Positions 1 to 53,132 of a stretch of 64,000 nucleotides of DNA are shown here, piece after piece (position 1 is the stretch's first letter; every line of letters starts with the position of its first letter). A program made the position numbers and the translations under genes. The stretch is from the human T2T-CHM13v2.0 reference genome, Homo sapiens. A model generated the notes under the pieces. That model ran no database searches and was not told where the DNA came from. It saw only the letters and a program-made list of their open reading frames with translations. The DNA lies in the NCBI RefSeq assembly GCF_009914755.1, contig NC_060945.1; one strand, written 5' to 3'.

Positions 1-2466
1 TATCCTTGATGAACACTGATGCAAAAATCCTCAGTAAAATTCTGGCAAAACGAATCCAGCAGCACATCAAAAAGCTTATCCACCAAGATCAAGTGGGCTT
101 CATCCCTGGGATGCAAGGCTGGTTCAATATACACAAATCAATAAATGTAATCCAGCATATAAACAGAGCCAAAGACAAAAACCACATGATTATCTCAATA
201 GATGCAGAAAAAGCCTTTGACAAAATTCAACAACCCTTCATGCTAAAAACTCTCAATAAATTAGGTATTGATGGGACGTATCTCAAAATAATAAGAGCTA
301 TCTATGACAAACCCACAGCCAATATCATACTGAATGGGCAAAAACTGGAAGCATTCCCTTTGAAAACTGGCACAAGACAGGGATGCCCTCTCCCACCACT
401 CCTATTCAACATAGTGTTGGAAGTTCTGGCCAGGGCAATCAGGCAGGAGAAGGAAATAAAGGGTATTCAATTAGGAAAAGAGGAAGTCAAATTGTCCCTG
501 TTTGCAGATGACATGATTGTATATCTGGAAAACCCCATTGTCTCAGCCCAAAATCTCCTTAAGCTGATTGGCAACTTCAGCAAAGTCTCAGGATACAAAA
601 TCAATGTACAAAAGTCACAAGCATTCCTATACACCAACAACAGACAAACAGAGAGCCAAATCATGAGTGAACTCCCATTCACAATTGCTTCAAAGAGAAT
701 AAAATACCTAGGAATCCAACTTACAAGGGATGTGAAGGACCTCTTCAAGGAGAACTACAAACCACTGCTCAAGGAAATAAAAGAGGATACAAACAAATGG
801 AAGAACATTCCATGCTCATGGGTAGGAAGAATCAATATCGTGAAAATGGCCATACTGCCCAAGGTAATTTACAGATTCAATGCCATCCCCCTCAAGCTAC
901 CAATGACTGTCTTCACAGAATTGGAAAAAACTACTTTAAAGTTCATATGGAACCAAAAAAGAGCCCAGATCGCCAAGGCAATCCTAAGCCAAAAGAACAA
1001 AGCTGGAGGCATCACACTACCTGACTTCAAACTACACTACAAGGCTACAGTAACCAAAACAGCATGGTACTGGTACCAAAACAGAGATATAGATCAATGG
1101 AACAGAACAGAGCCCTCAGAAATAACCCAGCATATCTACAACTATCTGATCCTTGACAAACCTGAGAAAAACAAGCAATGGAGAAAGGATTCCCTATTTA
1201 ATAAATGGTGCTGGGAAAACTGGCTAGCCATATGGAGAAAGCTGAAACTGGATCCCTTCCTTACACCTTATACAAAAATCAATTCAAGATGGATTAAAGA
1301 CTTAAACGTTAGACCTAAAACCATAAAAACCCTAGAAGAAAACCTAGGCATTACCATTCAGGACATAGGCATGGGCAAGGACTTCATGTCTAAAACACCA
1401 AAAGCAATGGCAACAAAAGCCAAAATTGACAAATGGGATCTAATTAAACTAAAGAGCTTCTGCACAGCAAAAGAAACTACCATCAGAGTGAACAGGCAAC
1501 CTACAAAATGGGAGAAAATTTTCGCAACCTACTCATCTGACAAAGGGCTAATATCCAGAATCTACAATGAACTCAAACAAATTCACAAGAAAAAAAAAAC
1601 AACCCCATCAAAAAGTGGGCAAAGGACATGAACAGACACTTCTCAAAAGAAGACATTTATGCAGCCAAAAAACACATGAAAAAATGCTCATCATCACTGG
1701 CCATCAGAGAAATGCAAATCAAAACCACTATGAGATATCATCTCACACCAGTTAGAATGGCGATCATTAAAAAGTCAGGAAACAACAGGTGCTGGAGAGG
1801 ATGTGGAGAAATAGGAACACTTTTACACTGTTGGTGGGACTGTAAACTAGTTCAACCATTGTGGAAGTCAGTGTGGCGATTCCTCAGGGATCTAGAACTA
1901 GAAATACCATTTGACCCAGCCATCCCATTACTGGGTATATACCCAAAGGACTATAAATCATGCTGCTATAAAGACACCTGCACACGTATGTTTATTGCGG
2001 CATTATTCACGATAGCAAAGACTTGGAACCAACCCAAATGTCCAACAATGATAGACTGGATTAAGAAAATGTGTCACATATACACCATGGAATCCTATGC
2101 AGCCATAAAAAATGATGAGTTCATGTCCTTTGTAGGTACATGGATGAAATTGGAAATCATCATTCTCAGTAAGCTATCGCAAGAACAAAAAACCAAACAC
2201 TGCATATTCTCACTCATAGGTGGGAATTGAACAATGAGATCACATGGACACAGGAAGGGGAATATCATACTCTGGGGACTGTGGTGGGGTGGGGGGAGGG
2301 GGGAGGGATAGCATTGGGAGATATACCTAATGCTAGATGACGAGTTGGTGGGTGCAGCGCACCAGCATGGCACATGTATACATATGTAACTAACCTGCAC
2401 AATGTGCACATGTACCCTAAAACTTAAAGTATAATAAATAAATAAATAAAAAATAAATAAAAAAAG
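1..2466 (+). mobile_element. LINE-1, L1PA2-like, 3' part (continues left of window)
   Basis: ORF2 RT ([11 protein letters not shown]) and C-terminal Cys-rich region; 3'UTR with G-tract and GATGACGAGTT (GAG, not the L1HS ACA/ACG); (TAAA)n tail 2430-2466. Confidence 0.96.
6..2230 (+). pseudogene. L1 ORF2 (RT + C-domain), frameshifted near 1590-1600
   Basis: ORFs 6..1631 and 1628..2230 are consecutive ORF2p segments; one base lost in the A-run AAGAAAAAAAAAACAACCCC. Confidence 0.93.
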
Positions 2467-2740
2467 AATTTGTCACAAAGGACATATTGTATGATTTCAC
2501 TTATATGGGGTGCCTAAAGTTGTCACATTCATAGAGATAGAAAGTAGAATAGTAGTTTACAATGGCTGTGGGGAGGGGAAAGTGGAGAGATAATGGGTAT
2601 GGAGTTTCAGTTTGGAAAACAAAAATTCTGGAGATGGATGGTGGTGATGGCTGCACCACAATATGAAGGAATCTAATGCCACCGAACTATATACTTAAAT
2701 TTAGTTAATGTGGTAAATATTTTGTGTGATATATTTTGTG
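2467..2740 (+). mobile_element. Old L1MB-type 3' end fragment
   Basis: ATAGAGATAGAAAGTAGAAT...TTCTGGAGATGGATGGTGGTGATGG, typical of L1MB 3' ends. Confidence 0.75.
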
Positions 2741-2741
2741 C

Positions 2742-49900: not shown

Positions 49901-50771
49901 GGACATAGGCGTGGGCAAGGACTTCATGTCCAAAACACCAAAAGCAATGGCAACAAAAGCCAAAATTGACAAATGGGATCTAATTAAACTAAAGAGCTTC
50001 TGCACAGCAAAAGAAACTACCATCAGAGTGAACAGGCAACCTACAAAATGGGAGAAAATTTTCATAACCTACTCATCTGACAAAGGGCTAATATCCAGAA
50101 TCTACAATGAACTCAAACAAATTTACAAGAAAAAAACAAACAACCCCATCAAAAAGTGGGCGAAGGACATGAACAGACAATTCTCAAAAGAAGACATTTA
50201 TGCATCCAAAAAACACATGAAAAAATGCTCGTCATCACTGGCCATCAGAGAAATGCAAATCAAAACCACAATGAGATACCATCTCACACCAGTTAGAATG
50301 GCAATCATTAAAAAGTCAGGAAACAACAGGTGCTGGAGAGGATGTGGAGAAATAGGAACACTTTTACACTGTTGGTGGGACTGTAAACTAGTTCAACCAT
50401 TGTGGAAGTCAGTGTGGCGATTCCTCAGGGATCTAGAACTAGAAATACCATTTGACCCAGCCATCCCATTACTGGGTATATACCTAAATGACTATAAATC
50501 ATGCTGCTATAAAGACACATGCACACGTATGTTTATTGCGGCATTATTCACAATAGCAAAGACTTGGAACCAACCCAAATGTCCAACAATGATAGACTGG
50601 ATTAAGAAAATGTGGCACATATACACCATGGAATACTATGCAGCCATAAAAAATGATGAGTTCATGTCCTTTGTAGGGACATGGATGAAATTGGAAACCA
50701 TCATTCTCAGTAAACTATCGCAAGAACAAAAAACCAAACACCGCATATTCTCACTCATAGGTGGGAATTGA
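46945..50771 (+). pseudogene. L1 ORF2, disrupted
   Basis: 1-nt deletion near 47903 (ACATTAAAAG) and in-frame TAG at 49608-49610; EN, RT and C-domain all recognisable. Confidence 0.93.
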
Positions 50772-53132
50772 ACAATGAGATCACATGGACACAGGAAGGG
50801 GAATATCACACTCTGGGGACTGTGGTGGGGAGGGGGGAGGGGGAGGGAAAGAAAAAATAAATAAATAAATAAATAAATAAATAAAAACTAGGTATTGATG
50901 GAACATATCTCAAAATAATAAGAGCTATCTATGACAAACCCACATCCAATATTATACTGAATGGGCAAAAACTGGAAACATTCCCTTTGAAAACTGGCAT
51001 AAGATAAGGATGCCCTCTCTCGCCACTCCTACTCAACATAGTGTTAGAAGTTCTGGCCAGGGCAATCAGGCAAGAGAAAGAAATAAAGGGTATTCAATTA
51101 GGAAAAGAGGAAGTTAAATTGTCCCTGTTTGCAGATGACATGATTGTATATTTACAAAATCCCATAGTCTCAGCCCAAAATCTCCTTAAGCTGATGAGGA
51201 ACTTCAGCAACGTCTCAGGACACAAAATCAGCATGCAAAAATCACAAGCATTCCTATATACCAATAACAGACAAACAGCCAAATAATGAGTCAACTCCCA
51301 TTCACAATTGCTTCAAAGAGAATAAAATACCTAGGAATCCAACTTTCAAGGGGTGTAAAGGACTCTTCAAGGAGAACTACAAACCACTGCTCAATGAAAT
51401 AAAAGAAGACACAAACAAAAGGAAGAACATTCCATGCTTATGGATAGGAAGAATCAATATCATGAAAATGGCCATACTGCCCAAGGTAATTTATAGATTC
51501 AATGCCATCCCCCTCAAGCTACCAATGACTGTCTTCACAGAATTGGAAAAAACTACTTTAAAGTTCATATGGAACCAAAAAAGAGCCCACATTGCCAAGA
51601 CAATCCTAAGCAAAAAGAACAAAGCTGGAGGCATCACGCTACCTGAGTTCAAACTATACTACAAGGCTACAGTAACCAAAACAGCATGGCACTGGTACCA
51701 AAACAGAAATACAGACCAATGGAACAGAACAGAGGCCTCAGAAATAACACCACACATCTAAAACCATCTGATCTTTGACAAACCTGACAAAAACAAGAAA
51801 TGGGGAAAGTATTCCCTATTTAATAAATGGTAATGGGAAAACTGGCTAGCCATATGTAGAAAGCTGAAACTGGATCCCTTCCTTACACTTTATACAAAAA
51901 TTAATTCAAGATGGATTAAAAACGTAAATGTTAGACCTCAAGCCATTAAAAACCCTAGAAGAAAACTTAGGCAATACCATTCAGGACATAGGCATGGGCA
52001 AAGACTTCATGACTAAGATGCCAAAAGCAATGGCAACAAAAGCCAAAACAGACAAATGGGATCTAATTAAAGTAAAGAGCTTCTGCATGGCAAAAGAAGC
52101 TGTCATCAGAGTGAACAGGCAACCTACAGAATGGGAGAAAATTTTTGCAATCCACCCATCTGACAAAGGGCTAATATCCAGAATCTACAAAGAATTTAAA
52201 CAAATTTACAAGGAAAAAACAAACAACCCCATCGAAAAGTGGGCAAAGGATATGAACAGACACTTCTCAAAAGAAGACATTTATGCAGCCAACAGACACA
52301 TGAAAAAATGCTCATCACCACTGGTCATCAGAGAAATGCAAATGAAAACCACAATGAGATACCATCTCATGCCAGTTAGAATGGCGATCATTAAAAAGTC
52401 AGGAAACAACAGATGCTGGAGAGGATGTCGAGAAGTAGGAAAGTTTTTACACTGTTGGTGGGAGTGTAAATTAGTTCAACCACTGTGGAAGACAGTATGG
52501 TGACTCCTCAGGGATCTAGAACTAGAAACACCATTTGACCAGCCATCCCATTACTGGGTGTATACCCAAAGGATTATAAATCATGCTGCTATAAAGACAC
52601 ATGCACACATATGTTTATTGTGGCACTATTCACAATAGCGAAGACTTGAAACCAACCCAAATGCCCATCAATGATAGACTGGATTAAGAAAATGTGGCAC
52701 ATATACACCATGGAATGCTATGCAGCCATAAAAAAGAATGAGTTCACGTCCTTTTCAGGGACATGGATGAAGCCGGAAACCATCATTCTGAGCAAACTAT
52801 CACAAGGACAGAAAACCAAACACCACATGTTCTCACTCATAGATGGGACTTGAACAATGAGAATGCTTGGACACAGGGTGGTGAATATTACCCACTGGGG
52901 CCTGTCGTGGGTGGGGGACTGGGGGAGGGATAGCATTATGAGAAATAGCTAATGTAAATGATGAGTTAATGGGTGTAGCAAACCAGCATGGCACATGTAT
53001 ACCTATGTAACAAACCTGCATGTTGTGCACATGTACCCTAGAACTTAAAGTATAATTTAAAAAAAAAGAAAGAAAGAAACCATCTTGAAAATCTCCAATT
53101 TGTTTTCAATGTTTTCTCAGAAATTACGTTGA

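What the first reader, a model, noticed from the sequence alone, without database searches (positions are those of the whole stretch)
881..51540. Same non-consensus two-SNP haplotype in three L1 copies of different age: possible concerted gene conversion of an ORF2 motif
Seen: all three L1PA copies read GCCATCCCC[C]TCAAGCTACCAATGACT[G]TCTTCACAG (variant bases 891/909, 49431/49449, 51513/51531), translating to [10 protein letters not shown]. Knowledge (from memory): the L1PA/L1HS consensus is CCCC[A]TCAAG...GACT[T]TCTTC (IPIKLPMTFF). The third copy is a much older, heavily decayed L1PA5/6-like element. It keeps its own bases close by (TTATAGATTC at 51491 vs TTACAGATTC; CATTGCCAAGAC vs CATCGCCAAGTC), so the shared tract is under ~100 bp. 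Common descent does not explain this, and two independent identical transversions in each of three copies is very unlikely. The distant L1MA at 16.8-18.9 kb lacks the haplotype. Inference: short-tract non-allelic gene conversion spreading one haplotype among L1s. Both changes are AT->GC, which fits GC-biased conversion or erosion of a double-strand-break-directing (PRDM9-type) or KRAB-ZFP motif, locally or lineage-wide.
Basis: partly seen in the sequence, partly recalled or inferred. Interest (0 to 1): 0.85.

Follow-up and report, generated by a model that had tools for sequence, protein, structure and literature searches.

The report
Local gene conversion among three L1s
Three neighbouring L1 retrotransposon copies on chromosome 21 share a pair of base changes found together nowhere else in the genome, most likely because short stretches of DNA were copied between them by gene conversion, a known and ordinary process.

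Summary
The 37-mer occurs exactly at 882, 49422 and 51504. It is not a subfamily consensus. Genome-wide, 8,590 sites match the 28-mer with both variant positions open, and only 3 carry C..G, all in this window. C alone is at 17 other sites and G alone at 28. No C..G copy carries one extra mismatch.

Copies 1 and 2 are separate full-length insertions with their own target-site duplications. Copy 2 is nested inside the older copy 3. The longest identity run of each pair holds the two sites: 93-95 bp for copy 3 against copies 2/1, and 283 bp for copy 1 against copy 2 (P about 0.013-0.019).

The best reading is at least two short-tract non-allelic gene conversions among neighbouring L1s. Outgroup orthologues and raw reads could not be checked. 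This is a clean instance of a known process, of modest interest.

The parts
1..2463 (+). Copy 1: the 3' 2.46 kb of a full-length young L1. The element starts 3,584 bases before the window.
   Evidence: window -3584..2311 aligns to copy 2 (44960-50851) at 96.7% over 5,900 columns; canonical 5' start GGGGGAGGAGCC; tail and its own target-site duplication.
2464..2478 (+). 3' copy of copy 1's 15-bp target-site duplication, AAGAATTTGTCACAA. The 5' copy is at -3600..-3586, outside the window.
683..965 (+). Copy 1 side of the 283-bp exact identity run with copy 2.
   Evidence: It is the longest run of the pair over 5.9 kb (permutation P 0.013).
891..909 (+). The two variant sites in copy 1 (C at 891, G at 909).
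42368..44951 (+). Copy 3, left half: the older L1 interrupted by copy 2.
   Evidence: 90.5% identity to copy 2 46215-48810; no conversion signal in this half.
44939..44951 (+). Left copy of copy 2's 13-bp target-site duplication, AAACTAGGTATTG.
44952..44959 (+). Eight extra bases (GGCTTCCA) between the duplication and the 5' end of copy 2.
44960..50884 (+). Copy 2: a young L1 with a full-length 5' end, nested in copy 3 in the same orientation. Its 3' UTR ends early at the G-rich tract (50851), followed by an A-rich tail.
49223..49505 (+). Copy 2 side of the 283-bp identity run with copy 1. Bases 49413-49505 are also identical to copy 3 51495-51587.
49431..49449 (+). The two variant sites in copy 2 (C at 49431, G at 49449).
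49692..49692 (+). A third rare allele (C, majority T) shared by copies 1 (at 1152) and 2 but not by copy 3. Its meaning is ambiguous.
   Evidence: 0 of 34 and 0 of 18 comparators carry it; its 27-mer occurs 27 times genome-wide, so chance sharing is plausible.
50885..52933 (+). Copy 3, right half, as far as it aligns to copy 2. Its true 3' end lies further right and was not mapped. Bases 50885-50897 are the right copy of copy 2's target-site duplication.
   Evidence: 90.7% identity to copy 2; it has the highest share of private alleles of 37 sequences (3.07%).
51495..51599 (+). Largest possible converted tract in copy 3 (105 bp), bounded by retained old-subfamily states at 51494 (T) and 51600 (A). 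It is exactly identical to copy 2 over 51495-51587 and to copy 1 over 51495-51589.
51513..51531 (+). The two variant sites in copy 3 (C at 51513, G at 51531). This is the smallest possible tract, 19 bp.

Best explanation
Two point changes, A to C and T to G, lie 18 bp apart in the ORF2 reverse-transcriptase region. They arose once in one of three same-orientation L1 elements. They were then copied into the other two by at least two short-tract non-allelic (ectopic) gene conversion events.

One event joined copy 2 and the older copy 3 in which it is nested. These are 2.1 kb apart, and the tract is 19 to 105 bp. The other joined copy 1 with copy 2, 48.5 kb apart, or less likely with copy 3. That tract is at least 19 bp and probably about 283 bp.

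Shown: the haplotype is unique to this locus; the elements are independent insertions of different age; and the identity tracts sit on the two sites. Inferred: the mechanism (homologous repair of a break using a neighbouring L1 as template) and the direction. Copy 3 is weakly favoured as a recipient. The event is local and probably neutral, since all three ORF2 frames are already broken.
For: 1. Uniqueness. The exact 28-mer occurs 3 times in 3.117 Gb, all here. With both sites open there are 8,590 matches. C at site 1 occurs at 20 sites, 17 of them elsewhere and all C..T. G at site 2 occurs at 31 sites, 28 of them elsewhere and all A..G. With up to 1 mismatch there are 48 hits, which is 3+17+28, so no further C..G copy exists. 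Under independence about 0.06 C..G sites are expected genome-wide.

2. Independent insertions. Copies 1 and 2 have unrelated flanks and their own target-site duplications of 15 bp and 13 bp. Copy 2 lies inside copy 3, so copy 3 is older.

3. Copy 3 belongs to another subfamily. It carries old-group states at 51444, 51494, 51600, 51716, 51749, 51752, 51755, 51788 and 51798. It has the most private alleles of 37 sequences (3.07%).

4. Shared rare alleles. Among 34 comparators over 2,054 bp, the only rare alleles shared by all three copies are these two sites.

5. Identity runs. The longest run of each pair contains the two sites. Copy 2 against copy 3 is 93 bp (P 0.017), copy 1 against copy 3 is 95 bp (P 0.019), and copy 1 against copy 2 is 283 bp (P 0.017 over 2 kb; P 0.013 over 5.9 kb).

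6. Overall relatedness. Copies 1 and 2 are 96.7% identical, no closer than copy 2 is to unrelated copies, which reach 97.8-97.9%.

7. Internal control. The left half of copy 3 shows no long run (P 0.31-0.45). Its few shared alleles are common genome-wide, at 277 and 48 hits.

8. Direction. Copy 3's other 64 private columns avoid 51440-51646 (P 0.001 for that fixed interval, 0.058 anywhere, 0.036 for the 105-bp maximal tract). This fits erasure of its own decay by an incoming tract.

9. Literature. Non-allelic conversion between neighbouring transposable-element copies, with higher rates at short distance, is described in PMC6598467 (parts 1-2 read).
Against: - No outgroup orthologue or raw read could be examined, so the pre-conversion state of any copy was never observed.
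- The run-length P values (0.013-0.019) are modest and assume evenly spread mismatches.
- No subfamily-diagnostic site lies inside the tract, so direction rests on one weak test.
- Copies 1 and 2 differ at 9 positions in the 187 bp between 49506 and 49692. The third shared allele is therefore not part of one clean tract.
- Copies 1 and 2 show no other homogenisation, so conversion here has been rare.
- The k-mer counts see only copies whose other 26 bases are intact, or carry one mismatch. More decayed copies carrying C..G would be missed.
- The comparators all come from one chromosome, and some (L015-L021) are duplicates of each other.
Confidence: 0.8

Rival explanations
1. Descent plus one conversion. 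Copies 1 and 2 inherited C..G from one source element, or one is the parent of the other. Only copy 3 acquired it by gene conversion, from the adjacent copy 2.
For: Copies 1 and 2 are both full-length and equally close to the same young comparators. Beyond the two sites they share one further allele absent from all comparators (49692). They also share three alleles each seen in only 1 comparator (45905, 46579, 48235). Siblings need not be closer to each other overall than to other family members.
Against: No other copy in the genome carries the haplotype. The source would therefore have left exactly two offspring, landing 48.5 kb apart. By my arithmetic, for random integration that is about 3 in 100,000. 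The two sites lie in the pair's longest identity run (283 bp, P 0.013), which descent does not predict. The 49692 allele is an ordinary rare transition (27 hits genome-wide).
Confidence: 0.1
2. Assembly or polishing artefact that copied two bases among L1 paralogues.
For: Not tested. No reads or second assembly were available.
Against: Each tract is flanked within 19 to 60 bp by copy-specific bases: 51494 in copy 3, 49506 in copy 2 and 966-968 in copy 1. Copy 3 differs from the young copies by about 9%, so reads would not mis-map between them. This last step is inference.
Confidence: 0.03
3. Recurrent identical mutation at a hotspot, for example a template-switch event that creates both changes at once, arising independently in three copies.
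For: The two changes are close together (18 bp) and of complementary type, A to C and T to G.
Against: 0 of 8,587 other sites carry the pair. A recurrent process should also show up elsewhere. The single variants are rare too, at 17 and 28 sites.
Confidence: 0.01
4. A motif-directed or lineage-wide process: erosion of a PRDM9 or KRAB-ZFP site, or a subfamily consensus state.
For: Both changes are AT to GC.
Against: About 99% of the sampled copies keep A..T (99 of the first 100 listed), and only 3 of 8,590 carry C..G. No match to the recalled 13-mer CCNCCNTNNCCNC lies within 250 bp of any tract on either strand. KZFP motifs were not testable.
Confidence: 0.02

Closest known systems
Non-allelic gene conversion between neighbouring Alu elements (Kass 1995; Roy 2000; Aleshin and Zhi 2010, as reviewed in PMC6598467, parts 1-2 read; PMC8230782, passages read)
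   Same: Short patches are copied between dispersed retroelement copies of different age on one chromosome. The review says rates are higher between copies less than 10 kb apart. Mosaic copies keep their own diagnostic bases outside the tract. Old elements can act as donors or recipients.
   Different: Here the elements are 6-kb L1s, not 300-bp Alus. The marker is a private two-base haplotype rather than subfamily-diagnostic bases. One pair is nested and 2.1 kb apart, and the other is 48.5 kb apart.
L1 gene conversion (Burton et al. [quoted passage not shown]
   Same: One L1 copy takes over sequence from another L1 at a fixed chromosomal site.
   Different: As I recall them, those cases involve large replacements that change the subfamily identity of a copy. 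Here the tract is at most about 100-280 bp and subfamily identity is unchanged.
Spread of a two-mutation haplotype among ISX/ISY Helitrons on the Drosophila miranda neo-X (Ellison and Bachtrog 2015, as described in PMC6598467, part 2 read)
   Same: Two nearby mutations travel together between transposable-element copies by non-allelic gene conversion, including transfer between elements of different type.
   Different: That case is chromosome-wide, creates a better protein-binding motif and is driven by selection. This one involves three copies in 51 kb, has no known motif, and sits in already broken ORFs.
Interlocus gene conversion in human segmental duplications (PMC4467073, PMC3790853; search listings and abstract starts only)
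   Same: Unidirectional transfer of short stretches between paralogous sequences, producing shared variants.
   Different: The paralogues here are independent retrotransposon insertions with unrelated flanks, not duplicated chromosome segments.

Membership tests
Non-allelic (ectopic) gene conversion tract | Derived variants shared by paralogous copies that common descent cannot explain | tested here: met
   Copy 2 is inserted into copy 3 with a 13-bp target-site duplication. Copy 3 keeps old-group bases on both sides of the tract. Copies 1 and 2 have separate duplications and unrelated flanks. For copies 1 and 2 alone, descent is not fully excluded.
Non-allelic (ectopic) gene conversion tract | The shared variants are rare in the rest of the repeat family | tested here: met
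   3 of 8,590 k-mer sites carry C..G, all at this locus. The single variants are at 17 and 28 other sites. No further copy appears with up to 1 mismatch.
Non-allelic (ectopic) gene conversion tract | A tract of raised identity around the shared variants, bounded by copy-specific differences | tested here: met
   The longest identity runs of all three pairs contain the sites: 93, 95 and 283 bp, with permutation P of 0.013-0.019. The left half of copy 3 shows none.
Non-allelic (ectopic) gene conversion tract | Donor and recipient are homologous and physically close | tested here: met
   All three are in the same orientation. They are 2,082 bp and 48,540 bp apart, with 91% and 97% identity.
Non-allelic (ectopic) gene conversion tract | The orthologous locus in an outgroup shows the pre-conversion state | not testable with these tools
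   No other primate genome is held. states that the genome has no relatives here.
Non-allelic (ectopic) gene conversion tract | The variants are real in the DNA (read support or a second assembly) | not testable with these tools
   No reads or other human assemblies were available.
Subfamily consensus or diagnostic variant | Carried by most members of a subfamily | tested here: not met
   0 of 34 comparators carry either base. 3 of 8,590 sites genome-wide carry both.
Segmental or tandem duplication of one L1 | Homology continues into the flanks, with no separate target-site duplications | tested here: not met
   Homology stops at the L1 ends. Each young copy has its own duplication.
PRDM9 hotspot motif | Match to the 13-mer CCNCCNTNNCCNC (motif recalled from memory) | tested here: not met
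   No match on either strand within about 250 bp of the tract in any of the three copies.
GC-biased gene conversion | A statistical excess of weak-to-strong changes among converted sites | tested here: inconclusive
   Both changes are weak-to-strong. There are only two linked sites, and they were noticed only because the derived haplotype spread.

The most novel reading that the evidence does not exclude
Neighbouring L1 copies, including long-dead ones, may form small local exchange groups in which rare variants, preferentially AT-to-GC ones, are passed around by short-tract conversion over tens of kilobases. If so, the effect would be measurable genome-wide from rare k-mer variants shared between neighbours.

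Two of the 28 other L1 copies with the rare G lie 28 kb apart on contig C8. They have different 5' truncation points and are only 94.9% identical. However, the site is not in one of that pair's five longest identity runs.
Probability: 0.15. Interest if true: 0.45.

Novelty: new member of a known kind. Interest (0 to 1): 0.3.

Why it matters
This is a clean, well-bounded example of short-tract gene conversion between dispersed L1 elements. It includes transfer between a young element and the older element in which it is nested.

Such events blur the age and subfamily signals used to date repeats and to trace source elements. They also show that private mutations can move between copies without retrotransposition.

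The k-mer test used here counts a rare variant pair genome-wide and asks whether the carriers are neighbours. It could be scaled up to measure L1-L1 conversion rate against distance, and any GC bias. The case reveals no new mechanism, and no function is involved.

Tried and rejected
1. Subfamily consensus. Rejected by the genome-wide counts.

2. Segmental duplication. Rejected by the flanks and target-site duplications.

3. Further tracts in the left half of copy 3.
- A TG-to-CA dinucleotide shared by copy 1 and copy 3-left looked promising, but its 28-mer occurs 277 times genome-wide.
- A T-to-C shared by copy 2 and copy 3-left occurs 48 times.
- Both are at chance level, and no long identity run exists there.

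4. The third allele shared by copies 1 and 2 (49692). Its 27-mer has 27 genome-wide hits and it lies outside the identity run. I left it as ambiguous.

5. Naming the subfamilies with published subfamily-selective primers (Table 1 of PMC12432230, section 4 read). Mismatch counts were inconclusive. No RepeatMasker or Dfam classification was available, so 'L1PA2-4-like' for copies 1/2 and 'older' for copy 3 rest on divergence and nesting only.

6. PRDM9 13-mer (recalled). No match.

7. Earlier findings of this scan.

8. The pair of A..G copies 28 kb apart on C8. A smaller fetch showed independent truncations and 94.9% identity, but the site is in none of the pair's five longest identity runs. Flanks were not examined.

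9. Literature. Six phrases for L1 gene conversion returned 1 paper, and only through a reference-list entry. Two further papers mention gene conversion only in passing.

10. Protein-database searches for orthologous ORF2 fragments carrying the changes were considered and not run, as very unlikely to be locus-specific.

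
Full report
**Observation**

All three are on the + strand. 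There are no further matches with up to three mismatches, and none in 100 shuffles (sequences). The variant bases are C at 891/49431/51513 and G at 909/49449/51531.

**Is it a consensus state?**

No. The window's own genome (3.117 Gb, 24 contigs) could be scanned for patterns.
- The 28-mer with C and G occurs 3 times, all in this window.
- With both variant positions open it occurs 8,590 times, 4,361 forward and 4,229 reverse. Of the first 100 places listed, 99 read A..T and 1 reads A..C.
- C at the first site occurs 20 times. The 17 copies elsewhere all read C..T.
- G at the second site occurs 31 times. The 28 copies elsewhere all read A..G.
- Allowing one mismatch gives 48 hits, which is exactly 3+17+28. 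No C..G copy with one extra change exists.

Under independence about 0.06 C..G sites are expected in the whole genome (my arithmetic). The haplotype is private to this 51-kb neighbourhood, so nothing is spreading lineage-wide.

One caveat applies. These counts see only copies whose other 26 bases are intact or carry one change.

**Anatomy**

BLAST of the region against itself and 10 kb of upstream sequence shows the following.
- Copy 1 spans window -3584 to about 2463.
- Copy 2 spans 44960-50884.
- They align end to end at 96.7% over 5,900 columns.
- Both begin with the canonical L1 5' end, and their flanks are unrelated.
- Copy 1 has a 15-bp target-site duplication, at -3600..-3586 and 2464-2478.
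- Copy 2 has a 13-bp duplication, at 44939-44951 and 50885-50897.

Copy 2 is inserted, in the same orientation, into an older L1. That older L1 is copy 3, with a left half at 42368-44951 and a right half from 50885. The halves are 90.5% and 90.7% identical to the matching parts of copy 2. So copy 3 predates copy 2, and the motif copies in copies 2 and 3 lie only 2,082 bp apart. Copies 1 and 2 are 48,540 bp apart.

ORF2 is interrupted in all three copies.

**Comparators**

I fetched the first 40 places listed, all on contig C1. Thirty-four had a single alignment of at least 1,300 bp spanning the motif and were used. Six were dropped as rearranged or truncated: L006, L008, L012, L013, L018 and L044. 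L015-L021 are near-duplicates of each other.

Over 2,054 bp the pairwise identities are 97.5% for copy 1 against copy 2, 91.3% for copy 1 against copy 3, and 91.0% for copy 2 against copy 3. Unrelated comparators reach 98.1% to copy 2.

Copy 3 has the highest share of private alleles of the 37 sequences, at 3.07% against 0.63-0.97% for copies 2 and 1. It also carries the states of the older comparator group at many sites on both sides of the motif. I defined the 'young' group (13 comparators) and 'old' group (11) by identity to copy 2 and copy 3.

**Shared rare alleles**

Across the 2,054 bp, the only alleles present in all three copies and in at most 2 comparators are the two sites. Here 0 of 34 comparators carry either base.

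I then used 18 full-length comparators, from 20 fetched. L056 and L064 were dropped, and ten of the 18 are the same elements as in the first set. Over the whole 5.9 kb, the only alleles shared by copies 1 and 2 and absent from every comparator are 49431, 49449 and 49692. The allele at 49692 is an ordinary rare transition, with 27 copies of its 27-mer genome-wide. It is separated from the two sites by nine differences between copies 1 and 2, so I treat it as ambiguous.

**Identity tracts**

For every pair, the longest run of exact identity contains the two sites.

| Pair | Run | Length | Permutation P |
|---|---|---|---|
| Copy 2 vs copy 3 | 51495-51587 | 93 bp | 0.017 |
| Copy 1 vs copy 3 | 51495-51589 | 95 bp | 0.019 |
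| Copy 1 vs copy 2 | 49223-49505 | 283 bp | 0.017 over 2 kb; 0.013 over 5.9 kb |

These figures come, and exact identity was verified.

Copy 3 keeps old-group bases at 51494 and 51600. Its converted tract is therefore between 19 and 105 bp.

As an internal control, the left half of copy 3 shows no unusual run against either young copy (P 0.31-0.45). The few alleles it shares with one young copy are common genome-wide, at 277 and 48 hits.

**Direction**

No subfamily-diagnostic site lies inside the tract, so direction cannot be read directly.

Copy 3's other 64 private columns leave 51440-51646 empty. P is 0.001 for that fixed interval, 0.058 for such a gap anywhere, and 0.036 for the 105-bp maximal tract. 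This weakly favours copy 3 as a recipient whose own decay was overwritten.

**Explanation**

The two changes most likely arose once. They were then moved by at least two short-tract non-allelic gene conversions among three neighbouring, same-orientation L1s.

Rivals:
- **Descent of copies 1 and 2 from one source, plus one conversion into copy 3.** This requires the only two offspring of that source to land 48.5 kb apart. It also does not predict the identity run.
- **Artefact.** This is unlikely because copy-specific bases lie 19-60 bp from the sites, but reads were not available.
- **Recurrent mutation and consensus state.** Both are excluded by the counts.
- **PRDM9.** The recalled 13-mer has no match within about 250 bp of any tract. 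KZFP motifs could not be tested.

Both changes are AT to GC. That is compatible with GC-biased conversion but proves nothing from two linked, ascertained sites.

**Comparison with what is known**

Non-allelic gene conversion between transposable-element copies is established. PMC6598467 (parts 1-2 read) reviews mosaic Alu copies, higher rates for copies under 10 kb apart, and a two-mutation haplotype spreading among Drosophila Helitrons. PMC8230782 (passages) reports 98 Alu cases, including old-to-young and young-to-old transfers.

For L1 specifically, I saw only a reference-list entry for Burton et al. 1991. Other human L1 reports are recalled, not read. Searches for six L1 gene-conversion phrases returned one paper.

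This is therefore a new, well-documented instance of a known process, not a new kind.

**Limits**

No outgroup genomes, reads, second human assembly or Dfam classification were available. A primer-based attempt to name the subfamilies was inconclusive.

Noticed in passing
G000 contig C8:106748628-106748655 and C8:106776471-106776498 (loci L065, L066): Two of the 28 other L1 copies with the rare G at the second site lie 28 kb apart on the same strand. They have different 5' truncation points and are 94.9% identical. They look like independent insertions sharing a rare base, but the site is in none of the pair's five longest identity runs. By my arithmetic, the chance that two of 28 carriers lie this close is about 0.007.
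   Followed up: partly
window 50810-50884: Copy 2's 3' UTR stops at the G-rich tract (50851) and runs straight into an A-rich AAAT-type tail. It lacks the last roughly 150 bp of 3' UTR that copy 1 has (2312-2463). This suggests early polyadenylation or a later deletion.
   Followed up: no
window 44952-44959: Eight bases (GGCTTCCA) of unknown origin lie between the left target-site duplication and the first base of copy 2.
   Followed up: no
G000 contig C1, about 16.1-16.7 Mb (loci L015-L021): Seven L1 fragments start at the same L1 position and carry almost no private alleles relative to each other. This is one L1 copied by segmental duplication, so these comparators are not independent.
   Followed up: no
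G000 contigs C13:11013095, C15:14664215, C21:8038294, C22:11253833: Four of the 17 C..T single-variant copies lie at low coordinates of contigs C13, C15, C21 and C22, all on the minus strand. If the contig numbers are chromosome numbers, these are acrocentric short arms. The four are probably one L1 copy multiplied by duplication or exchange between those regions.
   Followed up: no
G000 contig C1, 46.7-49.8 Mb: The stretch of contig C1 from 46.7 to 49.8 Mb holds about a quarter of the first 100 listed matches to the open 28-mer. This is several times the genome average of about 2.8 per Mb, so it is an L1-rich stretch.
   Followed up: no
window 42670-42671 and copy 1 at about -2024 (outside the window): Copy 1 and the left half of copy 3 both read CA where copy 2 and 12 of 12 comparators read TG, in the ORF1 C-terminal region. 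The CA form occurs 277 times genome-wide. It is a common alternative state and not evidence of exchange.
   Followed up: yes
window 18543-18678 (- strand) and about -6805 upstream of the window: Two much older L1M-type fragments cover the same ORF2 region at 73-78% identity and carry the A/T-type states.
   Followed up: yes
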